The notes beneath the pieces were generated by a model. That model was not told where the DNA came from and did not search any database. It was given only the letters and a program-made list of their open reading frames with translations. A DNA stretch of 64,000 bases from a phage: sequence record PX880099.1, one strand, 5' to 3'. Of the stretch, positions 1 to 63,678 are shown piece after piece (the first letter of the stretch is position 1; each line of letters opens with the position of its first letter). The position numbers and the translations under genes were made by a program.

Positions 1-2076
1 GTGGCAAAGAAAAAGGCAGCAGGTAGTTTAGCTGGAGTAGATATTGAAGTAAAGGCTCAACCAGGTAAACAGACTCTTGCAATGGATTTAATGCCAGAAG
101 TTATGATTTATGGTGGTGCCGCTGGATGTGTTTCTGCTGAAACGGAATATCTTACAAAAGATGGTTGGAGACAGATTAGTGAATATTCGGGAGAGGATAT
201 TTACCAATACAACCCTAAGAATAAGCGTTTAGAATTGGTAACACCTTATTTTGTAGAATACGATTTAAATGGAGATAACCTATACAGAATAACAAATGGT
301 GTAGGATTGTTCCAAGAACTTAGTATGGAACACCGTTTTGTATTCTATAAGAAAAAGAAATCAAAGAAACATTTTGAGATTCTTGTAGGAGATCTTATTG
401 CATTACAGCAAATAGGAAAACCCCTTCAAGGTTATGTAGAAAATCCATTCGGTAAACGTGTTCCTTTTAACATACCTGGTAAAAAGAGTACTTACTTAAA
501 AATACACGAGGTTATTTCAACAGATGATAAGAAATATTGTTTTGAGACTCCAAGCAGTTATATTGTCTTTAGACGTGGCGATCACTGCTTCGTTACTGGG
601 AATAGCGGCAAGTCTCGTCTGCTATTGCTGAAAGCTTTAAAATACGCCTACAAAGATCCTTTGTTTGGTGGAATACTTTTTCGTAAGAACACCACTGCTC
701 ACCGTAAACCAGGTGGTCTGTTTACAGAAGCAAAACGTTTGTATCTTCCTTTACAACCGCACGTAAAAGAAAGTACAATGGATATCATTTTTGAAGCCAC
801 TGGTGGCGGAACCCTCAAATTCGACCATTTGGAAAATGATAACGTAACAGCAGAAACAAACCATCAGGGTACACAGTATTCAATGGTAGGTTTTGACGAG
901 TTAACCCACTTCACGCAATATGAAATGCTCTATCTTCTGGGACGTATGCGTTCAGAATCAGAAACAAGCTTCATGTTGTGCACATGTAACCCCGATGCAG
1001 ATAGTTGGGTTTTGAATTGGGTGTTACCTTATCTTGATGAGGGTGGTTATCCTAGAGAAGATATGTGTGGTAAACAAAAATATTTCATCATTGTTAACGA
1101 TGAACCTGTTTTTGCTGACACACCTGAAGAACTGAAAGAAAAATATCCAGAAAACTGTTTCATGGAAAACCCTAATACAGGGGAGACAGTTGTTATTGAA
1201 CCACAAACTTTCGTATTTATTGGTGGGACAATATTTGATAACCCAGAACTGATTAGGCTTAACCCTAATTACTTAGCACAGCTTAAATCACAAACAGCAA
1301 TTAAAAGAGCACAGCTTCTGGATGGTTGTTGGTTTGCACGTATTCAGAAAGAATCTTTCTTTCAACGTGAATGGTTACATAAAATATCTTATAAAGATGT
1401 TCCTAACAATCTTAAACTAATGCGAGCCTGGGATAAAGCTGTTTCAGTTCCTACAGAAACTTATCGTTATCCAGACTATACAACGTCTGTCAAAATGGGT
1501 AAAGATCAAGATGGTAATATCTACATCTTTGGTGACTATGACTATGACGCTGTGGACGAGAAAAGTAAAATTTTCGGAAGGTTTAGAAGACTACCTGGGG
1601 AAAGGGATAATCTGATTCTTAATCAATGTAAGATTGATGGACCAGAAGTTACAGTAGTGCTTCCTAAAGACCCATCTGGTGCTGGGACAATAGAATATAC
1701 AGAGTCTGCAAAGAAACTTATTCTAGAAGGTTTTGTTGTTAAACCAGATGCTATGCCAGGTAACAAGAAAAAGCTTCAGCGTTTTATGCCTTTTAGTAGC
1801 GCGTGTCAAAATGGTTTTGTTTATATTGTTGAAGATTCTTTCCCTAATGTGGAAACTCTAACCCACTTTTATAAAGAATTGGAATCTTTCAATGGTGAAA
1901 GATCTACAGCCACTATTAAAGATGACATTCCCGATGCTGCTGCTTCTTGTTTCAATACTCTGTCAAAAGAGAATACTTTCAAGGCAGTAGCTATCCCTGC
2001 AACAACAAATGCTCCTACAGGATACAGTAGAATGAACAGCGGATTTCACCAACCGTATAGTGTCCGTAAAAGATAA
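1..2076 (+). CDS. Terminase large subunit; P-loop interrupted by putative mini-intein; may be 5'-partial at window edge
   Basis: 691-aa ORF. Split Walker A (YGGAAG / intein / SGKS), Walker B-like VGFDELTHF, CTCNP motif; portal-sized gene follows. ORF starts at GTG at nt 1 so true start may lie upstream. Confidence 0.8.
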   Translation: MAKKKAAGSLAGVDIEVKAQPGKQTLAMDLMPEVMIYGGAAGCVSAETEYLTKDGWRQISEYSGEDIYQYNPKNKRLELVTPYFVEYDLNGDNLYRITNGVGLFQELSMEHRFVFYKKKKSKKHFEILVGDLIALQQIGKPLQGYVENPFGKRVPFNIPGKKSTYLKIHEVISTDDKKYCFETPSSYIVFRRGDHCFVTGNSGKSRLLLLKALKYAYKDPLFGGILFRKNTTAHRKPGGLFTEAKRLYLPLQPHVKESTMDIIFEATGGGTLKFDHLENDNVTAETNHQGTQYSMVGFDELTHFTQYEMLYLLGRMRSESETSFMLCTCNPDADSWVLNWVLPYLDEGGYPREDMCGKQKYFIIVNDEPVFADTPEELKEKYPENCFMENPNTGETVVIEPQTFVFIGGTIFDNPELIRLNPNYLAQLKSQTAIKRAQLLDGCWFARIQKESFFQREWLHKISYKDVPNNLKLMRAWDKAVSVPTETYRYPDYTTSVKMGKDQDGNIYIFGDYDYDAVDEKSKIFGRFRRLPGERDNLILNQCKIDGPEVTVVLPKDPSGAGTIEYTESAKKLILEGFVVKPDAMPGNKKKLQRFMPFSSACQNGFVYIVEDSFPNVETLTHFYKELESFNGERSTATIKDDIPDAAASCFNTLSKENTFKAVAIPATTNAPTGYSRMNSGFHQPYSVRKR
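127..603 (+). other. Putative mini-intein (159 aa) inside terminase Walker A
   Basis: Insert begins with Cys (codon 127-129, CVSAETEYLTKDGW) and ends with Asn (601-603) followed by Ser. Removing it restores GAAGSGKS. Too short for a homing endonuclease domain. Confidence 0.6.
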
Positions 2077-40223: not shown

Positions 40224-42815
40224 CTAGTGACAGGACGCCCAGGAGTTACCCACATCATATCCGGCAGTAAGCTGAACGTTAAGATTGTAAAATTCTCCAG
40301 CCTTAGTAACAGCTAAAGCAGCAAGTTCACCTGCCCGACTATAGGCTGTAAACCATCCACCTTTGGGAGATTCATGAATGTTAGCCCAAATTTGCCCTGT
40401 CTCTTTTTCCTTATTATGCTTCCATTCTTCGACTTTAGCAAGGCATTCTTTATCAATTTTCTTTTGTTCTTCAGGATCGTCTACTTTTTTCCAACCTAAT
40501 GATTCGGGTGAAAACCATTTAAATTCTACAAGGTTACGAGAAACTTCAAGCTGGGCTTCATCGTGATATGCAATCATTTGTTGTACGAAGTCTTTATTCT
40601 TCCAGTCATCTTTAAAGAAGTCAACACTTAGTCCTTCTTCTTCGATCATATCATCATAAATAACCATTGCACGTTTAGCACAGATAACCCCACCGCTTTG
40701 GAACAGAGAGTTAAGAATCGCATGAGCAGAACGAGTAGGAACCTTACGACCGTCAATACCCAAAACATATTGTTTACCAGTCTTAACCCAGAAATCGTTT
40801 AAACGTTCTTTAAGACGCGCCAATGGGAATGCAGCTTCCCAGAAAGCATCGAACACCAATTGACCTGTAAACTTATCGCTACCAATTGTTTTAGCAACCT
40901 TGTCGGCTTGTGCACCATAGGTAATACCATACTTAACAGATTTAGCAGGACTACGTTCAAATTTACGTCCAATAGTTTCAGTGATACGTTTTGCCATCAT
41001 TGTGTGAACATCATTAGGTTTCTCTAACAACAGAGCGTTACAATATTCGTGTGGCTCCGGCTCGTATCGCCAACAGTAGTGTGATTCAATTTTTGCTTCC
41101 AAAGAGTCGAAGTCGTAGCCAATCTGGAAGTATTTAGGAACCTCTACACCAAACAAGTTACGCATCTCCCATCCAAACAAAGATGTGACACGAGGAATAT
41201 TAGCTACAGACCTATGCTTCATACGAGAGGTTGCAGCATCACATGTAGCGGCTGGTGTAGGAATACGCCCATCCGCCCTTACTGCGGCTAAGAAACCTTT
41301 ATCATATTCTTGGTCTTCTTCATCTTCTTCCCAATCAGCACCACCACCTAAAATAGAGTTCCTACGATGCTTATACGTTAAGTATTCTACAATCTGTGTA
41401 GCATAAGGGAATTTCTCACCCAAAGCTTGCAGGTTAGGACAGATTTCTTTTTCCTGACCTTTGGTAAAACATGGGTTAGTCAATACTTTAAGACCGCGAC
41501 CTTTTGCTATACGCTCTTGAATCTTCCTTTCCAAGGTTTCCGGTGTGCACTCCAGATGATCACAACGGTCCTGACAAAAATTAGAAGATAAAGTTTGCTC
41601 AACGTAAGCTCGAATACCTTTCTGAAGTTCTTCCTCGCTCTTTTTAATCTTGGTGCCAGATTTAAGAGTCAAATCTTTATCTTTATATTCCGATGGTACC
41701 CAACCTAATCCTACAAGCCAGTTTTTAATATGGGTTGTATCGTTTAATGTTGCAGGGATGTGAGGATCACATAAAGGCTCATCTGCTGCAACTGGCAGTT
41801 TCCACTCTTTCCCCAACATAACTAACCACCAATCTCCATCCCTCTCTTCCAAATGACCATCATGTTTCTTAGCAAAATTGATCATATGGTTAGTTGGTTC
41901 TAAGTTCTTTTTAATTTGCAACTTAGGTGGAATAAAAGCTTTAAGATAACCTTTTGTTGCTGGTTTAGGTGGCAAAATAGGCTCAACGAGTAAACGAAGA
42001 CGCTCCATTTCTGCATCCAAAAAAGCAAGGTTCTCTTCTGCTTGCTTCATGTTAAAAGCAAACCCACGGTGTTCCTGGCGCGTGATAATGTCTGCTACAC
42101 GTTGTTCAAGTTCAAATGGACCTTCCCATTTATCATAATCACCCCATTCTTCCATGAGGTAATTATATACACTTGTGTTGGCTTTGTTATCATAGATACA
42201 GTAATAAAGCATATCCGCAGCAAAAGTCTTAAATCGATCTTCTTCTGGAATCTCTTTACGGAAATCTATTTTTACATCACCGCCTGCTTTTCGAGAAAGT
42301 GCTGCCAAGCTATGTCCTGATTTGCCCTCAATCTTTCGATCTGGGTTTAACACTTTACTCAAAATCAAAGAGTCAATAAGTTTTACCTTATTTTTGCCCC
42401 ACGTGTTATATTTAACACTGTAATCTAATCCATAAAACAGTTTTGTAGCCAACCAGTCATAGTTGATACCGTTGTGTGCCACAGCCATTTCAACCAAATA
42501 TTCAGGCTTGTCTTTAAAATAACCTTCATGATTAATAAAGTCTGGGAAATCTTTTAATTGAAAATGTGTGTAATCTTGCGCCACATATTCTTTAAGAACA
42601 TACGTGTATTTACCATCTGATTCTTCATAAGGACGCCCGTCAAAAATATACTTAGGGCCATCGTGGAAAGCTACTATCTCTCCTGTTTCATGGTTCTCTA
42701 AGACAATACAGTGCATTTGAAATGTGTCTTTGAGACGATAAGGGCTAGCTAAATAATCGATAGTGTCATTATTCAACAATCCGTTTGCTTCAATATCCCA
42801 TGTAAACTTACTCAC
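40224..42815 (-). CDS. DNA polymerase, family A, with 3'-5' exonuclease domain
   Basis: 863 aa; Exo I-like WDIEANGL; motif A-like DFDSLEAKI; motif B-like AKSVKYGITYG; motif C HDE (AYHDEAQLE). Confidence 0.9.
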   Translation of the reverse strand: MSKFTWDIEANGLLNNDTIDYLASPYRLKDTFQMHCIVLENHETGEIVAFHDGPKYIFDGRPYEESDGKYTYVLKEYVAQDYTHFQLKDFPDFINHEGYFKDKPEYLVEMAVAHNGINYDWLATKLFYGLDYSVKYNTWGKNKVKLIDSLILSKVLNPDRKIEGKSGHSLAALSRKAGGDVKIDFRKEIPEEDRFKTFAADMLYYCIYDNKANTSVYNYLMEEWGDYDKWEGPFELEQRVADIITRQEHRGFAFNMKQAEENLAFLDAEMERLRLLVEPILPPKPATKGYLKAFIPPKLQIKKNLEPTNHMINFAKKHDGHLEERDGDWWLVMLGKEWKLPVAADEPLCDPHIPATLNDTTHIKNWLVGLGWVPSEYKDKDLTLKSGTKIKKSEEELQKGIRAYVEQTLSSNFCQDRCDHLECTPETLERKIQERIAKGRGLKVLTNPCFTKGQEKEICPNLQALGEKFPYATQIVEYLTYKHRRNSILGGGADWEEDEEDQEYDKGFLAAVRADGRIPTPAATCDAATSRMKHRSVANIPRVTSLFGWEMRNLFGVEVPKYFQIGYDFDSLEAKIESHYCWRYEPEPHEYCNALLLEKPNDVHTMMAKRITETIGRKFERSPAKSVKYGITYGAQADKVAKTIGSDKFTGQLVFDAFWEAAFPLARLKERLNDFWVKTGKQYVLGIDGRKVPTRSAHAILNSLFQSGGVICAKRAMVIYDDMIEEEGLSVDFFKDDWKNKDFVQQMIAYHDEAQLEVSRNLVEFKWFSPESLGWKKVDDPEEQKKIDKECLAKVEEWKHNKEKETGQIWANIHESPKGGWFTAYSRAGELAALAVTKAGEFYNLNVQLTAGYDVGNSWASCH

Positions 42816-44122: not shown

Positions 44123-44144
44123 TAATAAAAGGGCCGAAGCCCTT
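44123..44144 (-). terminator. Rho-independent terminator after primase-helicase gene (minus strand)
   Basis: Minus-strand AAGGGC / TTCG loop / GCCCTT followed by TTTATT; stem overlaps the stop codon. Confidence 0.55.
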
Positions 44145-45921
44145 AGTAGTTGCTATCCGTAGGTAAGTTAGCAGGGTTGTTAAAATACTGCTCTTTGTCG
44201 TGAAGAGTTGCAGTTCTAATGTCATAGTAAAACTGCCCTGCTGGACCAGTCTCCGAGAACTCACGGTTTTTTAGGATAAAGCAATGAGTTGTATTACGTT
44301 CTACAGGATCTTCAGCAGCCTTATCTCGTTCCAAAGCCAAGGTAATACCAGCACCTTTAGCCAAGAAACTACTACCCATTGCATCGTCCTCTGTTAAGTG
44401 CTCATTGCCACCGTTAGCTGACTTCTTAACGTGTGAGATGACGATAATAGTTATAGCATACTCTTTCATGATTCGCTTCAACCATGTTGCTAACTCTTCC
44501 TGGGCTTGAACATCCATACCAGAAAGCAAATCAGAATAAGGGTCGATAACAAGAATTGTTACTCCAAAATAGATGATCATCTCCAAAACTTTTTCTTTGA
44601 TAGACTCCACATCTGCTCCACGATCATCACACACGTAAAAACGTGGTGATCCATCTTCTCTTTCGTAAAAATCTAGGATTTTTTCTTTATTCTCTTCCAA
44701 GATTTGAAATTTCTCTTCCGGTGTTTTCCTGTGTAGAGGAATGTGTAGGAAAGAGGATAACAGGTTACGAGAATACTTTTTATAAGTCGCTTCCAAGGAC
44801 AGAATACCTAGGGTATGTTCTGGGTGTGCAACAATAATATGTTTGGTGATCTCGTTCACCATCAAAGTTTTACCGATACTGGTCTTTGCCAGGATGACTG
44901 TAATCTCTTCCTCTACTAAACCACCACCCAACATGTTTGCAGCAACACGCATAAAAGGAGGCAAGGTAATCATCTTGGATTCCAAGCATTCCAATGCAGC
45001 TTCATACAAGACATTAGAAGCATAAACACCTGCGGGAGTGTATAGACGAGCACTCCAAAAAGCTTTTACGAAATCCTTTGCACGACCTTCTTCCAGATAC
45101 TGATTGGCATCCTTAAGATCCATCTGCATACGGTAGACTTTGTTACGAGGTAACACCTTAACAATATTTTCAAATGCCTCATTACCTGCTTTGTCGTTAT
45201 CCATGCAAACAATAATCTTCTTAAATTTTTCAAAGAAAGGATATTGTGCCTGAACTTGTTTATACATACTGGTTTCACCAGTTGTGCCACTTACTACGGC
45301 TGGAAGCTCATATTTACTGTCCAAGTTTTCAGATAGCATTTGATAAGCTGCCAGAGCATCGTGTTCACCACCTGTAATTACAACAGTATGAGAACGATCT
45401 GCAAAACGAATTTGTCCAAAAAGATCTACATCTTTACCTACTTGACCAATAGGTTTACTGAAATCTTTAGGATGAATACGACGCTTAAAACCGACCAATT
45501 CTTTACCGATGGTAGTTGGATATAAACAACTTTCTACTACCATCTGATCCCCTTCCTGACGGTATTCATAACGAACACCATAGAAAGATGAAACTTTTTC
45601 TTTAATGCCTCGATAACCACGTGGGTTGGTTGATGTTTCTTGAACAATTTTACGATGAATCTGTTTATTAAATTCCGAACCCACAATCTCCTCCTCTTCT
45701 TCTAAAACTTCACCATTTTCTCGTAACCATTCTACGCTAGGAATAGTGTATTCACACGCAAAGCACTTAGCACCTTTATGCTCTCCATTAGAATCTAATC
45801 CGTAAACCATCAGGTTATTACGAGAGCGATCCTTGCCATTTTTCATGCAGCGCGGACAACCTGTATGTCCTTCCTTGCTAAGATCAACATCAAATCCATA
45901 TTTAGTTATAATGTGCGACAC
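44143..45921 (-). CDS. Bifunctional DNA primase / DnaB-like helicase (T7 gp4-type)
   Basis: 592 aa; N-terminal zinc-binding CPRC...CFAC; central TOPRIM-like region; C-terminal Walker A ILAKTSIGKT and Walker B-like ILVIDPYSDL. Confidence 0.85.
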   Translation of the reverse strand: MSHIITKYGFDVDLSKEGHTGCPRCMKNGKDRSRNNLMVYGLDSNGEHKGAKCFACEYTIPSVEWLRENGEVLEEEEEIVGSEFNKQIHRKIVQETSTNPRGYRGIKEKVSSFYGVRYEYRQEGDQMVVESCLYPTTIGKELVGFKRRIHPKDFSKPIGQVGKDVDLFGQIRFADRSHTVVITGGEHDALAAYQMLSENLDSKYELPAVVSGTTGETSMYKQVQAQYPFFEKFKKIIVCMDNDKAGNEAFENIVKVLPRNKVYRMQMDLKDANQYLEEGRAKDFVKAFWSARLYTPAGVYASNVLYEAALECLESKMITLPPFMRVAANMLGGGLVEEEITVILAKTSIGKTLMVNEITKHIIVAHPEHTLGILSLEATYKKYSRNLLSSFLHIPLHRKTPEEKFQILEENKEKILDFYEREDGSPRFYVCDDRGADVESIKEKVLEMIIYFGVTILVIDPYSDLLSGMDVQAQEELATWLKRIMKEYAITIIVISHVKKSANGGNEHLTEDDAMGSSFLAKGAGITLALERDKAAEDPVERNTTHCFILKNREFSETGPAGQFYYDIRTATLHDKEQYFNNPANLPTDSNY

Positions 45922-61396: not shown

Positions 61397-61867
61397 CTAA
61401 TCTGATTGCCAACCACTCGCCGTTTTGGTCCATAATCTTTGATTATCTGACCCTCTGAAAGGTTTTGTGGTTGGATTGTTTATTTCATACTTTCCGTCTA
61501 CAATAATGTCAACAAGATTTTTAATATACAAAGGCACTTCCTCAAAAGTATATCCTGTATACACCATTATATCTTTGCTTGACCCATAAACGTCTCTAAC
61601 CTTTTCTATAAGGTTTTTAACATTGTAAATATTCTGCGGATCTAATGGTTCTCCTCCTAAAATTGTTAAACCTTTTACAAACGGTCTTGACAAATCTTTT
61701 AAAACTTGCTCTACATTTTCGTTAGTGAACGGTTTCCCATAAGAATAAGACCAGGCTTTCTGGTTAAAACAGCCACGACAACCGTGGCTACAACCACTAA
61801 CCCAGAGGGAGCACCTAACTCCCTCACCATTAATAAGATCTACAGGTTCATATCCTGCAAAATTCAA
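61397..61867 (-). CDS. nrdG: Anaerobic ribonucleotide reductase activating protein (radical SAM)
   Basis: 156 aa; CxxxCxxC cluster CSHGCRGC; overlaps stop of nrdD by 4 nt. Confidence 0.85.
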   Translation of the reverse strand: MNFAGYEPVDLINGEGVRCSLWVSGCSHGCRGCFNQKAWSYSYGKPFTNENVEQVLKDLSRPFVKGLTILGGEPLDPQNIYNVKNLIEKVRDVYGSSKDIMVYTGYTFEEVPLYIKNLVDIIVDGKYEINNPTTKPFRGSDNQRLWTKTASGWQSD

Positions 61868-63678
61868 AGATGTTTCTCCCTTTGCAAAACTTCCTGCATT
61901 TTACCTTTGTTATAAGGCCGTGAATTAGGGGCAGAAAGATACCCTGATACACGTCTAACTACAGAAATAGTTTCTTCTTCATGGTTGCCACAATTAGGAC
62001 ACTCAAACCCTTTAGCCGTTGCCTTAAATTCTCCATGAAAACCACACTTAAAGCATTGATCCACGGGCTGATTAATACCAAAATAGTGAATATGTTCATA
62101 AGCGTAGTCTACTAAAGTCTCCAAAGCTTCTAAGTTATTCTTTAAGTTTGGTGTTTCGACATAACTTATGTTACCACCATTGCTAATCTGTGCAAAACCT
62201 GCTTCATAATCCCATTTTTCAAAAGGATTTGTTACCAACCATACAGGTTGATGAAAAGAATTAGTAAGATAGTCTCTTTCTACCAGACCTGGATATTTTT
62301 CATTTAAAGCTGTTGCAAATTTATAGCACAAGGATTCTGCTGGAGTTCCATAAAGACTAAATGCCAACTTAGATCGTTCTTTAAACACAGCACACACATC
62401 TTTCATATGTTGCAGAATGTTTTTACCTAGTTCCTTTTTATCTTTTTCCTCTGGATAAAGGATTTCCAAAGCTTCGGCAAGACCTACATAACCAATACTA
62501 ATAGAAGCATAACCACCTTCAAACAAAGCACCAATTTCATCGTTGGCATTTAAACGCGCTAAAGCCCCTTCCATGAAAAGAATAGGGTTTTCAGATGCTT
62601 TGGTATGTCTGATACGGTTTACACGTAGCATGTGAGCATCGTAGGCTATCTCCATATGTTTATTAAGAAGATCGGTGAAAGATTCTCCTTTACTTCTCGC
62701 TTCCGCAGCAATCAGAGGCAAGTTGATAGAAACTACTCCAAGGTTGAATCGTCCATCATATTTTTCTCCTTGTTCGGTGGCATAGTACGACAAAAAGGAA
62801 CGACAACCCATACTCGTAACGGTACCATCTGCTGATCCCGTAACTTCTTTGTTCAAAGGAACAGAAATAAAATCTGGATAAATACGATCAGCACAACATG
62901 CCAAAGCTTGTTGCTTAAGGTCGTAGTTAGGATCACTAGGTTTCATGTTAACACCTTCTTGTAAAAAGAAAATAACTTTAGGGAATACAGGCGTTACATG
63001 ATCTTTACCTAGACCGTTACTATGCACTTTAAGATAGTTAGCTGTGATCATTCTGCCAAAAACAGAGGTATCCAGACCCATACTGATTGTAATAAAAGGA
63101 GATTGTCCATTAACACTCATTAAAGTGTTAACCTGATACAAAAGAGTTTGCATAGCGTCATATACATCTTGTTCGGTCATTTCTAGGGCTTCTTTCCTTG
63201 CATAACAACCGTAGCGACGTTTGGTTATCTCCATGTTTTTAAGGAAACTGGCTTCAACATAAGGACTAAGACCTTTATCAATGTGCGCACACGTCTGACC
63301 TCCATACTGACTGGAGGCAACAGCTTGGATGATTTGAGTTAGCACTGTAGTAGCTACTCCAATAGATTTTGGTTTTTCTATCTGTGCAGCACCGATCTTA
63401 AAACCATTCTCTAACATATCTTGATAATTAACAAGACAACAGTTTGTAAGAGGAGAGAGCAGATAATCCAAGTCGTGAATATGTCCAAAACCTTCTGTAT
63501 GCCATTCTGACAAGTTTTTTGGCAGTATCTGTGTCATTGCCATATGTTTGCTTAAAATCCCCGCCAAGAGATCCCTGTGCGTGTTAACAAGGTGGGAAGG
63601 TTTGTTTGCATTCTCTCTAGTGTATGTTTCTGAAGTGCGATCTAAAAAAGAAAAAACATCTTGGTACAAATCTTTCAT
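61864..63678 (-). CDS. nrdD: Anaerobic ribonucleoside-triphosphate reductase (class III)
   Basis: 604 aa; C-terminal zinc ribbon CFKCGFHG...CPNCGN and glycyl-radical motif RRVSGYLS. Confidence 0.9.
   Translation of the reverse strand: MKDLYQDVFSFLDRTSETYTRENANKPSHLVNTHRDLLAGILSKHMAMTQILPKNLSEWHTEGFGHIHDLDYLLSPLTNCCLVNYQDMLENGFKIGAAQIEKPKSIGVATTVLTQIIQAVASSQYGGQTCAHIDKGLSPYVEASFLKNMEITKRRYGCYARKEALEMTEQDVYDAMQTLLYQVNTLMSVNGQSPFITISMGLDTSVFGRMITANYLKVHSNGLGKDHVTPVFPKVIFFLQEGVNMKPSDPNYDLKQQALACCADRIYPDFISVPLNKEVTGSADGTVTSMGCRSFLSYYATEQGEKYDGRFNLGVVSINLPLIAAEARSKGESFTDLLNKHMEIAYDAHMLRVNRIRHTKASENPILFMEGALARLNANDEIGALFEGGYASISIGYVGLAEALEILYPEEKDKKELGKNILQHMKDVCAVFKERSKLAFSLYGTPAESLCYKFATALNEKYPGLVERDYLTNSFHQPVWLVTNPFEKWDYEAGFAQISNGGNISYVETPNLKNNLEALETLVDYAYEHIHYFGINQPVDQCFKCGFHGEFKATAKGFECPNCGNHEEETISVVRRVSGYLSAPNSRPYNKGKMQEVLQREKHL

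What the first reader, a model, noticed from the sequence alone, without database searches (positions are those of the whole stretch)
127..603. Mini-intein splitting the terminase large-subunit P-loop
The terminase Walker A motif is broken as ...IYGGAAG | C...(159 aa)...HCFVTGN | SGKSRLL. Deleting the insert restores a canonical P-loop GAAGSGKS. The insert begins with Cys and ends with Asn followed by Ser, which is the chemistry needed for protein splicing, and it is too small to contain a homing endonuclease. The terminase P-loop is a known intein insertion site. The penultimate residue is Gly rather than the usual His, so it may be an atypical or inefficient intein.
Basis: partly seen in the sequence, partly recalled or inferred. 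Interest (0 to 1): 0.65.

Follow-up and report, generated by a model that had tools for sequence, protein, structure and literature searches.

The report
Unannotated mini-intein in coliphage terminase
The large terminase (DNA-packaging motor) gene of this phAPEC8-like E. coli phage carries a small self-splicing protein element (mini-intein) inside its ATP-binding loop; this is a known kind of element, but public records do not annotate it, and its catalytic residues sit between two recognised splicing classes.

Summary
Window 127-603 is a 159-codon in-frame insert (Cys...Thr-Gly-Asn|Ser) that splits the terminase Walker A loop GAAG|SGKS. Among the 120 best homologues, 64 have the contiguous loop. 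Another 35 carry an insert of 146-328 aa at the identical site, always Cys...Gly-Asn|Ser.

The insert's AlphaFold model (pLDDT 88) matches only HINT-fold proteins. The larger alleles fold as inteins carrying a LAGLIDADG homing endonuclease. Intein and exteins co-diverge, with the same strong purifying selection (dN/dS about 0.06). An intein-less relative in the same subfamily supplies the empty site. I conclude it is a functional, endonuclease-free mini-intein that must splice to make active terminase (78.7 kDa to 60.1 + 18.6 kDa).

The penultimate Gly is not a defect. It is the hallmark of a large phage intein family with Cys1, [S/T]xxH, a block-F Cys and [T/S]-G-N. Its one characterised relative, the class 3 AceL NrdHF intein, splices in minutes and is inactivated by Gly-to-His.

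Pfam and NCBIfam miss the insert, and none of the GenBank records whose annotation I saw calls it an intein. It is a new member of a known kind. Whether it splices by the class 1 route, the class 3 route or a relay is untested.

The parts
1..2076 (+). TerL precursor ORF: 691 aa, 78.7 kDa, GTG start, stop codon at 2074-2076
   Evidence: ORF list. Terminase_6N E=5e-17 on residues 202-460. The same CDS is annotated as terminase large subunit in PQ433349.1 at 99.8% identity. Masses.
1..126 (+). N-extein, TerL residues 1-42, ending ...IYGGAAG. Bases 115-126 encode G-A-A-G, the first half of Walker A.
   Evidence: Aligns with the N-termini of intein-less homologues such as ...VLIYGGAAGSGKSRL.
127..603 (+). 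Mini-intein of 159 aa, 18.6 kDa, HINT fold, no homing endonuclease
   Evidence: AF2 pLDDT 88.2. All 50 top Foldseek PDB matches are HINT-fold proteins (inteins, bacterial intein-like and BIL2 domains, hedgehog autoprocessing domains), best 6zgq. The family profile hits the 6zgq intein at E=7.9e-12. dN/dS is 0.063-0.065.
127..168 (+). Block A: C1-V-S-A-E-T6-E-Y-L-T-K-D-G13-W14. Cys1 is TerL C43.
   Evidence: C1, T6, G13 and W14 are invariant in the 25-sequence TerL-intein alignment. Cys1 is present in 192/192 N-termini that aligned from profile position 1, plus one of the ten that did not.
322..339 (+). Block B core: S66-M-E-H69-R70-F71, which are positions B:7, B:10, B:11 and B:12
   Evidence: H69 is invariant and S66 nearly so. 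In the wider family B:10 is His in 202/203, B:7 is S/T in 195/207, and B:11 is Arg in 114/204. AceL NrdHF has S65-P-N-H68-R69-M70 at these positions, and its R69 compensates for the missing penultimate His.
346..375 (+). Lys-rich loop Y74-K-K-K-K-S-K-K-H-F83, specific to the 158/159-aa clade
   Evidence: The loop is identical in 14 of the 16 other members of the 158/159-aa clade. Two members carry one or two substitutions (P0013, H82 to P; P0016, YKKRKSKKHF). Synonymous AAA/AAG and TCA/TCC changes occur in phi92, JohannJBalmer and 05F01, so the constraint is on the protein. Model confidence is lowest here (mean pLDDT 63 for residues 71-80). Function unknown.
532..561 (+). Block F: K136-Y137-C138-F-E-T-P142-S-S-Y145. 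Cys138 is position F:4 and TerL C180.
   Evidence: K136, Y137 and C138 are invariant. F:4 is Cys in 184/191 family members and Pro sits at +4 in 135/188. Cys138 aligns with the essential C124 of AceL NrdHF, and Pro142 with its P128.
589..603 (+). Block G: F155-V-T157-G158-N159. Thr is G:5, Gly is the penultimate residue, and Asn is the terminal, cyclising residue.
   Evidence: G158 and N159 are invariant. In the wider family G:5 is T/S in 170/182, G:6 is Gly in 179/182 and G:7 is Asn in 182/182. AceL NrdHF ends T144-G145-N146|S.
604..2076 (+). C-extein, TerL residues 202-691, starting with the +1 nucleophile Ser. Bases 604-615 encode S-G-K-S, the second half of Walker A. Walker B (VGFDE) and the nuclease domain lie downstream.
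   Evidence: Terminase_6N covers 202-460. TIGR01630 gives a weak match at 559-654. The +1 residue across the wider family is Ser 88, Cys 68, Thr 26.

Best explanation
Window 127-603 encodes a functional cis-splicing mini-intein inserted between Gly42 and the Ser of the Walker A loop (GAAG|SGKS) of the large terminase of a phAPEC8-like (Phapecoctavirus) E. coli phage.

TerL is translated as a 691-aa (78.7 kDa) precursor whose ATP-binding loop is interrupted, so it cannot bind or hydrolyse ATP (inferred). The 159-aa HINT domain folds and brings the two junctions together (fold predicted).

The proposed chemistry is as follows.
1. The Gly42 carbonyl is moved onto a thiol. Most likely this is Cys1 (TerL C43), by an N-to-S acyl shift activated by block B Ser66/His69. 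The invariant block-F Cys138 (C180), which lies next to the scissile bond, acts as a second obligatory thiol, either as a relay/branch point or as a catalytic helper.
2. The acyl group is passed to the hydroxyl of Ser+1 (S202).
3. Asn159 (N201) cyclises and releases the intein. Arg70 probably takes the role of the missing penultimate His.
4. A spontaneous O-to-N shift makes the Gly-Ser peptide bond.

The products are a 532-aa (60.1 kDa) terminase with an intact GAAGSGKS loop and a free 18.6-kDa intein.

The element has no endonuclease, so it no longer homes. It is inherited vertically in most Stephanstirmvirinae, and it persists because only a precise deletion would be viable. I put about 0.93 on it being a splicing-competent intein. 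Within that, I put about 0.6 on Cys1 being required and about 0.6 on Cys138 being required.
For: Shown here:
- The insert sits exactly at one peptide bond of a conserved motif. 64 homologues have the contiguous loop and 35 have inserts of 146-328 aa at the same bond, all of the form C...GN|S.
- Klebsiella phage vB_KpM_FBKp34, in the same subfamily, provides the empty site ...GGT GCA GCA GGA|TCT GGT AAG TCA.
- The AF2 model (pLDDT 88.2, pTM 0.81) is all-beta with one helix. All 50 top Foldseek PDB hits are HINT-fold proteins (inteins, bacterial intein-like and BIL2 domains, hedgehog autoprocessing domains). The best is the AceL NrdHF intein 6zgq (E=4.7e-6, TM 0.65-0.67).
- The profile of the TerL inserts hits 6zgq at E=7.9e-12. 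The profile aligns end to end with the wild-type AceL NrdHF sequence (56.5 bits), matching C138 to C124, the Pro residues to each other, and TGN to TGN.
- Every residue needed for splicing is invariant in 25 TerL inteins that are down to 24% identical: C1, T6, H69, C138, G158, N159.
- A 327-aa allele at the same site folds like PI-SceI and the TliVMA intein, that is, HINT plus a LAGLIDADG endonuclease (Foldseek E=7e-13).
- Intein and extein identities fall together across the clade, from 87/90% down to 71/71%; in the most distant member (P0016) the intein is somewhat more diverged, at 53/67%. dN/dS is 0.063-0.065 for the intein and 0.060-0.066 for the exteins, measured against Justusliebigvirus.
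- 133 phage genomes carry at least 80% of the intein DNA, against 135 that carry at least 80% of the C-extein DNA. These are isolated, viable phages with a single TerL locus per record.

From the literature:
- P-loops of terminases and helicases are classic intein sites, and mycobacteriophage TerL inteins splice efficiently (PMC5050341; PMC2807308).
- AceL NrdHF (S-x-x-H-R, Cys at F:4, T-G-N|S) splices with a half-time of about 3.8 min. G145H abolishes its activity and R69 assists Asn cyclisation (PMC7891396).
Against: There is no experimental evidence of splicing for this protein or for any Cys1-bearing member of its family. Curated intein models in Pfam and NCBIfam do not match the insert even at E<=1. 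A single-sequence search against the PDB gives nothing significant. The two conserved His residues that normally assist Asn cyclisation (F:13 and G:6) are absent, replaced by Tyr and Gly. The structure is a prediction from only 25 sequences. dS is close to saturation (1.4-1.9), so the dN/dS values are approximate. The roles assigned to Cys1, Cys138 and Arg70 are inferred by homology, not measured.
Confidence: 0.93

Rival explanations
1. It is an intein that splices by the class 3 route. Block-F Cys138 attacks the Gly42-Cys43 peptide bond directly and forms a block-F branched thioester, which is then passed to Ser+1. Cys1 is dispensable for the chemistry.
For: The closest characterised relative by sequence and by fold is a proven class 3 intein (PMC7891396). 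The window intein has Cys at F:4, Thr at G:5 and Ser at +1, and lacks Asp at F:4 and His at G:6. Within the wider family about 7 of roughly 174 inteins have Ala, Lys, Pro or Ser at position 1 while keeping Cys F:4 and [T/S]GN. At the RNR small-subunit 'RDE|' site, Cys1 and Ala1 alleles coexist, and the nearest neighbour of one Ala1 allele is a Cys1 allele at 48% identity. Three of 37 WCT inteins were already known to keep Ser1 or Cys1 (PMC2807308).
Against: Cys1 is invariant in all 35 TerL inteins, down to about 25% identity. It is also present in about 96% of the wider family (193 of about 202 N-termini: 192 aligned from profile position 1 plus one more). That is not expected for a dispensable residue. 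Trp at B:12 is absent (Phe here; Trp in 2/207 of the family). The usual working definition of class 3 requires the absence of an N-terminal nucleophile.
Confidence: 0.3
2. Splicing is conditional. The two adjacent active-site thiols (Cys1 and Cys138) form a reversible disulfide, or the invariant Lys-rich loop binds nucleic acid. Under this reading the intein delays or gates terminase activation.
For: Two invariant cysteines are predicted to lie next to the N-scissile bond. This follows from the 3.0 A distance between modelled Cys124 and the scissile carbonyl in 6zgq. Class 3 inteins are inhibited by oxidation of the F:4 Cys (PMC7664689; PMC6195587 abstract). The YKKKKSKKHF loop is constrained at the protein level although it is predicted to be flexible.
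Against: No data exist. The E. coli cytoplasm is reducing. The loop is absent from the other TerL-intein clades. I could not extract model coordinates to measure the Cys-Cys distance.
Confidence: 0.12
3. The 159 residues are a permanent accessory domain of the terminase that is not excised. Klebsiella phage 05F01, for example, annotates the protein as having an 'N-terminal endonuclease domain'.
For: One GenBank record describes the same protein that way. No splicing data exist.
Against: The segment lies inside the GxxxxGK[ST] loop, which cannot function if left interrupted. The fold is HINT, not a nuclease. The nucleophile and Asn positions are invariant. Homologues with 0, 146, 159, 246 or about 325 extra residues at the same bond are otherwise collinear. 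No second contiguous P-loop or second TerL is present in the window.
Confidence: 0.02
4. It is a decayed intein that no longer splices, or splices only poorly, because the penultimate His has been lost.
For: From my own recollection, not checked here: some inteins with a penultimate Gly, such as Chlamydomonas ClpP, needed Gly-to-His to splice in E. coli. Curated HMMs do not recognise this insert.
Against: The intein is under purifying selection equal to that on the essential exteins. Gly is fixed in 179/182 family members. The T-G-N|S relative splices fast and is inactivated by Gly-to-His. More than 130 isolated phages depend on this gene.
Confidence: 0.03

Closest known systems
AceL NrdHF-1 intein (PDB 6ZGQ; Hoffmann et al. 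2020, PMC7891396), a naturally split class 3 intein from an Antarctic lake phage-like contig
   Same: It is the best match by sequence profile (E=7.9e-12) and by fold, and the two align end to end. Both have block B S-x-x-H-R-hydrophobic, Cys at F:4 followed by Pro at +4, no His at F:13 or G:6, the terminal T-G-N followed by Ser+1, and no Trp at B:12.
   Different: AceL NrdHF starts with Ala1, is split into two genes with a GIY-YIG endonuclease gene between them, and sits in an RNR small subunit. The window intein starts with an invariant Cys1, is contiguous, and sits in a terminase P-loop. Identity is only about 19%.
Mycobacteriophage TerL inteins, especially the P-loop insertions TerL1-a and TerL1-b (Kelley et al. 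2016, PMC5050341)
   Same: These are inteins in the ATPase domain or Walker A loop of the phage large terminase. They are splicing-competent, they are polymorphic among related phages, and splicing is needed to form the active site.
   Different: The host terminase family differs: Terminase_1 there and Terminase_6 here. In mycobacteriophages the only Terminase_6 insertion described is in the C-motif. The sub-site also differs. TerL1-a lies between the Lys and the Thr of GK|T, whereas this one lies two residues before the Lys (G|SGKS). No sequence relationship was tested.
Canonical class 3 (WCT) inteins, such as mycobacteriophage Bethlehem DnaB, Msm DnaBi1 and MchDnaB1
   Same: They share Cys at F:4, Thr at G:5, Ser/Thr at +1, a preference for ATPase P-loops, and an association with phages.
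   Different: WCT inteins lack an N-terminal nucleophile, have Trp at B:12 and usually keep the penultimate His. They are inserted after the P-loop Lys (SVGK|A). Structural similarity is weaker than to 6zgq (TM about 0.5).
Endonuclease-containing TerL inteins at the same site in uncultured and Vibrio-type phages (P0023, P0026, P0027, P0029, P0030, P0043, P0058)
   Same: They occupy the same insertion bond (GAAG|C...GN|SGKS), have the same splicing blocks, and are predicted to have the same HINT core.
   Different: They carry a LAGLIDADG endonuclease domain of about 170 aa between blocks B and F. They are only 25-39% identical to the window intein.

Membership tests
Intein (HINT-domain protein-splicing element) | In-frame insertion inside a conserved host-protein motif, whose precise removal restores the motif | tested here: met
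   Deletion restores GAAG|SGKS. 64 homologues have the contiguous loop, and an empty site exists in FBKp34.
Intein (HINT-domain protein-splicing element) | HINT fold | tested here: met
   AF2 pLDDT 88.2. All 50 top Foldseek PDB hits are inteins, hedgehog domains or bacterial intein-like/BIL2 domains.
Intein (HINT-domain protein-splicing element) | Block A N-terminal nucleophile (Cys/Ser/Thr) and block B (T/S)xxH | tested here: met
   Cys1 is present, and S66-M-E-H69 forms block B. Cys1 and His69 are invariant.
Intein (HINT-domain protein-splicing element) | [quoted passage not shown] | tested here: met
   N159 is followed by Ser. Asn is present in 182/182 of the family, and +1 is always S, C or T.
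Intein (HINT-domain protein-splicing element) | Penultimate His (G:6). This is typical of inteins but not obligatory. | tested here: not met
   The residue is Gly158. Gly is found in 179/182 of the family. Functional inteins without this His are documented.
Intein (HINT-domain protein-splicing element) | Sporadic distribution, with endonuclease-bearing alleles at the same site (the signature of homing) | tested here: met
   Alleles with 0, 146, 159, 246 and 301-328 extra residues occur at the same bond. The 327-aa allele folds as HINT plus LAGLIDADG.
Intein (HINT-domain protein-splicing element) | Match to curated intein sequence models (Pfam and NCBIfam) | tested here: not met
   No family matches at E<=1 for the insert alone. 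The family is detected only with a custom profile.
Intein (HINT-domain protein-splicing element) | Demonstrated excision and extein ligation | not testable with these tools
   This needs expression followed by SDS-PAGE or mass spectrometry. Only indirect support is available: purifying selection and viable phages.
Mini-intein (no homing endonuclease) | Only the splicing domain is present, with no LAGLIDADG, HNH or GIY-YIG domain | tested here: met
   The insert is 159 aa and folds as a single HINT domain. No Pfam endonuclease domain matches.
Class 1 inteins | An N-terminal Cys/Ser/Thr that forms the linear (thio)ester | tested here: inconclusive
   Cys1 is present and invariant. Whether it is used as the nucleophile cannot be tested here. 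The typical class 1 Asp at F:4 is replaced by Cys.
Class 3 inteins | Absence of an N-terminal nucleophile | tested here: not met
   Cys1 is present in 35/35 TerL inteins. The definitions are in PMC2807308 and PMC7891396.
Class 3 inteins | The WCT triplet: Trp at B:12, Cys at F:4, Thr at G:5 | tested here: inconclusive
   Cys138 and Thr157 are present but B:12 is Phe. The proven class 3 AceL NrdHF intein also lacks the Trp and has Met instead.
Class 3 inteins | A block-F branched thioester intermediate, with Cys F:4 essential | not testable with these tools
   This needs C180A/S mutants and trapping of the intermediate.
Terminase_6-type large terminase (the host protein) | An ATPase domain with Walker A and B, followed by an RNase H-like nuclease domain | tested here: met
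   PF03237 matches at E=5e-17. VGFDE forms Walker B. PF17289 is found in close homologues. Walker A is complete only after the insert is removed.

The most novel reading that the evidence does not exclude
The window intein belongs to a very large phage-borne intein family. The family profile gives 9,727 cluster representatives at E<=1e-3. In the roughly 190 inteins carried by the 148 newly retrieved proteins among the 150 best hits, the shared signature is Cys1, [S/T]xxH, Y-C-[F/V]-x-V-P, RRNG and [T/S]-G-N. This family straddles the class 1/class 3 boundary.

Under this reading both Cys1 and the block-F Cys are obligatory, perhaps as a thioester relay Cys1 to Cys F:4 to +1. Cys1 has also been lost repeatedly, giving true class 3 inteins such as AceL NrdHF. 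The family would then be the missing pre-adapted intermediate for the origin of the class 3 mechanism, or evidence that the mechanism arose more than once. The E. coli phage TerL intein would be an easy experimental model for it.
Probability: 0.3. Interest if true: 0.7.

Novelty: new member of a known kind. Interest (0 to 1): 0.45.

Why it matters
There are three practical points and one conceptual one.

Practical points:
1. The terminase of a whole subfamily of widely isolated phages depends on a protein-splicing step. The subfamily includes phAPEC8, phi92 and the ESCO and BASEL phages, many of which are candidates for phage therapy.
2. None of the GenBank records whose annotation I saw calls the insert an intein. 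One calls it an 'endonuclease domain'.
3. Standard domain libraries miss it. The BASEL comparative annotation counted zero inteins for Bas61. I did not examine that genome directly, but its closest relative, phage outra, carries the TerL insert. A 2024 paper states that no inteins have been reported in coliphages.

Conceptual point: the catalytic signature combines Cys1 with the class 3 block-F Cys, Thr G:5 and Gly G:6. Cys1-less relatives, including the proven class 3 AceL NrdHF intein, belong to the same family. Together these give a tractable system for asking how class 3 splicing arose from class 1, a question the literature treats as unresolved. A small intein that is native to E. coli, needs only Ser at +1 and lacks the His residues could also be useful as a protein-engineering tool.

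Tried and rejected
- Single-sequence Pfam and NCBIfam scans of the insert found no family.
- A single-sequence phmmer search against the PDB gave only insignificant hits. The best was a portal protein at E=0.05, which I judged to be noise.
- The word-indexed homologue search with the insert alone returned only 5 fragments. I therefore extracted inserts from the TerL homologues instead.
- A profile of only the last 28 residues did not find 6zgq in the PDB, whose deposited sequence carries C124A and N146A. I resolved this by taking the wild-type sequence from the paper's supplement and aligning it locally.
- A sequence profile of the large inserts did not hit LAGLIDADG structures, and Pfam LAGLIDADG_3 matched only below threshold. 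Structure prediction and Foldseek settled the point.
- I considered that the A-rich run at 349-369 might be a frameshift or nucleotide-level signal. I rejected this because relatives differ there by synonymous changes while the peptide is unchanged.
- I looked for a second TerL or a second intein of this family in the window and found none. The large replication ORFs (Pol A, primase-helicase, NrdD) show no intein domains.
- Tori & Perler 2011 and Brace et al. 2010 are not held in the library. What I say about class 3 inteins with Ser1 or Cys1 therefore rests only on PMC2807308.
Full report
**Identity of the window**

The window starts at the GTG start codon of a 2,076-nt ORF. That ORF is 99.8% identical to the annotated terminase large subunit of Escherichia phage vB_Ec-G1 and 98% identical to that of phAPEC8 (genus Phapecoctavirus, subfamily Stephanstirmvirinae). 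Pfam Terminase_6N matches residues 202-460 only.

**The observation**

Bases 127-603 are 159 codons. They run from TGT (Cys) to AAT (Asn) and are followed by AGC (Ser). The flanks are ...MIYGGAAG and SGKSRLL.... Removing the segment gives a 532-aa protein with a canonical Walker A loop, GAAGSGKS.

**Comparative test**

Of the 120 best homologues:
- 64 have the contiguous loop (...IYGGAAGSGKSRL...).
- 35 carry an insert at exactly this bond.
- 21 are truncated or mis-started gene calls.

The inserts come in size classes of 146-149, 158-159, 246 and 301-328 residues. All 35 start with Cys and end with Gly-Asn followed by Ser.

An intein-less allele exists within the same subfamily. Klebsiella phage vB_KpM_FBKp34 reads GGT GCA GCA GGA|TCT GGT AAG TCA at the site. 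This is the pattern of a mobile insertion, not of an integral domain.

**What the insert is**

Curated models in Pfam and NCBIfam do not recognise it, and a single-sequence PDB search is empty. A profile built from 25 TerL inserts, however, hits the solved AceL NrdHF intein 6zgq at E=7.9e-12.

The AlphaFold model built from that alignment has pLDDT 88.2. All 50 of its top Foldseek matches in the PDB are HINT-fold proteins: inteins, bacterial intein-like and BIL2 domains, and hedgehog autoprocessing domains. 6zgq ranks first.

The invariant positions of the TerL inteins are the ones needed for splicing: C1, T6, G13, W14, H69 (block B S-x-x-H), K136-Y137-C138 (block F), G158 and N159.

A 327-aa allele at the same site is predicted (pLDDT 82.5) to be a HINT domain with an inserted double-motif LAGLIDADG endonuclease. 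Its best matches are the TliVMA and PhoVMA inteins and PI-SceI (E down to 7e-13). The window copy is therefore the endonuclease-free mini form of a homing intein.

**Evidence that it is functional**

Across the 158/159-aa clade, intein identity tracks extein identity: 87/90, 85/87... 71/71%. In the most distant member (P0016) the intein is somewhat more diverged, at 53/67%. Against phi92 and JohannJBalmer (Justusliebigvirus), dN/dS is 0.063-0.065 for the intein and 0.060-0.066 for the exteins. dS is near saturation, so these values are approximate.

The intein DNA is present at 80% coverage or more in 133 phage records. The C-extein DNA is present at that coverage in 135. So almost every sequenced phage of this TerL lineage has the intein. 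These are viable isolates with one TerL locus each.

An unspliced Walker A loop cannot work, so splicing must occur. That step is inferred. The expected products are 60.1 kDa and 18.6 kDa from a 78.7-kDa precursor.

**The penultimate Gly and the block-F Cys**

I searched the TerL-intein profile against 1.84 billion cluster representatives. It finds 9,727 proteins at E<=1e-3 and 2,058 at E<=1e-10.

In the roughly 190 inteins carried by the 148 newly retrieved proteins among the 150 best hits, the counts at key positions are:

| Position | Residue | Count |
|---|---|---|
| G:6 (penultimate) | Gly | 179/182 |
| G:7 (terminal) | Asn | 182/182 |
| G:5 | Thr or Ser | 170/182 |
| F:4 | Cys | 184/191 |
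| B:10 | His | 202/203 |
| B:12 | Trp | 2/207 |
| +1 | Ser / Cys / Thr | 88 / 68 / 26 |

The host proteins are typical phage targets: TerL, PhoH, DnaB-like and primase-helicases, RecD-like helicases, RtcB, and RNR large and small subunits. About half of the inteins sit at the same P-loop position, immediately before xGK[S/T].

The only characterised relative is the AceL NrdHF intein. It has:
- block B S65-x-x-H68-R69-M70;
- an essential Cys124 at F:4, followed by a Pro-Gly kink;
- the ending T144-G145-N146|S.

It splices with a half-time of about 3.8 min. G145H abolishes its activity, and R69 partly replaces the missing His (PMC7891396).

Its wild-type sequence, taken from the supplement, aligns with the TerL profile from position 6 to the last residue. 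C124 falls on C138, Pro on Pro, and TGN on TGN. The window intein has S66-M-E-H69-R70-F71, C138...P142 and T157-G158-N159|S. Gly158 is therefore a family hallmark and not a lesion.

**Which splicing class**

By the published criteria, class 3 inteins lack an N-terminal nucleophile and have Trp B:12, Cys F:4 and Thr G:5. The window intein meets Cys F:4, Thr G:5 and Ser+1. It fails 'no N-terminal nucleophile' and fails Trp B:12, although AceL NrdHF also lacks the Trp.

Cys1 is invariant in 35/35 TerL inteins and in about 96% of the wider family (193 of about 202 N-termini: 192 aligned from profile position 1 plus one more). That argues it is used.

About seven family members have Ala, Lys, Pro or Ser at the predicted position 1 while keeping Cys F:4 and [T/S]GN. 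They occur at four different insertion sites. At the RNR small-subunit 'RDE|' site, which is the AceL NrdHF site, both kinds of allele coexist:
- Cys1 alleles: P0155, P0200 and P0204.
- Ala1 alleles: P0170 and AceL NrdHF.

The nearest neighbour of the Ala1 allele P0170 is a Cys1 allele at 48% identity. So the family seems able to lose Cys1 repeatedly. That fits a block-F Cys already positioned to take over.

I therefore commit to a splicing intein (0.93). Within that, I put about 0.6 on Cys1 being required. I also put about 0.6 on Cys138 being required, whether as a relay thiol or a catalytic helper. A pure class 3 route gets about 0.3. None of this can be settled without mutants.

**Relation to known terminase inteins**

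Mycobacteriophage TerL inteins are well described and do splice (PMC5050341). The P-loop insertions there (TerL1-a and TerL1-b) are in Terminase_1 proteins and lie at or next to GK|T. The only Terminase_6 insertion described is in the C-motif. The present site, G|SGKS in a Terminase_6 protein, is a different sub-site. Canonical class 3 DnaB inteins follow the Lys (SVGK|A).

**Whether it was already known**

- None of the records listed, or inspected, annotates an intein.
- Klebsiella phage 05F01 calls the protein a 'large terminase with N-terminal endonuclease domain', although it has the same 158-aa mini-intein.
- The BASEL study states that it identified inteins precisely. Its table lists 2, 0 and 1 inteins for the three phi92/phAPEC8-like phages Bas60, Bas61 and Bas62. 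Bas60 and Bas62 have the TerL insert, and so does the closest relative of Bas61. The TerL mini-intein was evidently not counted.
- A full-text search for 'intein' together with phAPEC8, Phapecoctavirus or phi92 found no description of it.
- A 2024 paper states that no inteins have been reported in coliphages.

I rate it a new member of a known kind.

**Limits**

There is no biochemical evidence. The structures are predictions from shallow alignments of 25 and 7 sequences. Only the 150 best hits of the representative search could be examined, and their residue counts are biased toward the profile. Position 1 of the non-Cys members was inferred from the alignment offset. Two further cases (P0127 and P0150) probably have Cys1 with a short insertion, and I did not count them as losses.

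Noticed in passing
window 346-375 (intein residues 74-83): The Lys-rich segment YKKKKSKKHF lies just after block B, in the least confident part of the model. It is identical in 14 of the 16 other members of the 158/159-aa clade (P0013 has H82 to P; P0016 has YKKRKSKKHF). Relatives show synonymous AAA/AAG and TCA/TCC changes, so the constraint is on the protein. The Vibrio-type mini-inteins have an acidic segment here instead. Its function is unknown; nucleic-acid binding or gating of splicing are possibilities.
   Followed up: partly
window 127-603 compared with 1-126 plus 604-2076: The intein has 33.8% G+C, against 38.6% for the exteins and 39.3% for the whole window. This could be a trace of foreign origin or simply reflect the Lys-rich composition.
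   Followed up: no
L004:1371-3470 (Klebsiella phage 05F01, LC483177.1): This TerL is annotated as 'potential large terminase with N-terminal endonuclease domain'. Translation shows the same 158-aa mini-intein with no endonuclease, so the annotation is a misreading of the insert.
   Followed up: yes
relatives MZ501100 (Bas60), MZ501063 (Bas61), MZ501084 (Bas62); window 40224-42815, 44143-45921, 61864-63678: The BASEL table lists 2, 0 and 1 inteins and 1, 0 and 1 introns for these three relatives. Some phAPEC8/phi92-like phages therefore carry further inteins or introns in other genes. In this window the Pol A, primase-helicase and NrdD ORFs show no intein of this family and no Pfam intein domain.
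   Followed up: partly
representative proteins P0127 (2,602 aa), P0150, P0167 and others: Single proteins carry two to four inteins of this same family, seen as up to 8 matched stretches. Some are back to back: in P0147 one intein ends ...ITGN and the next starts immediately.
   Followed up: no
phage records MW794153 and others (Vibrio phage ICP1) and MT497262 and others (Rheinheimera phages): tblastn alignments of an intein-less TerL to these phages begin at query residue 31-32, which is right at the GAAG|SGKS junction. This could mean another insert at the same site or just a divergent N-terminus.
   Followed up: no
records MG065650.1 and MG065656.1 ('Campylobacter phage B15/C3') and OP562383.1 ('Acinetobacter phage ABPW7'): Two of these, Campylobacter phage B15 and Acinetobacter phage ABPW7, have TerL or intein DNA about 98% identical to E. 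coli Phapecoctavirus; Campylobacter phage C3 matches at about 80%, like the phi92-type coliphages. The host labels look doubtful and may reflect contamination or mislabelling.
   Followed up: no
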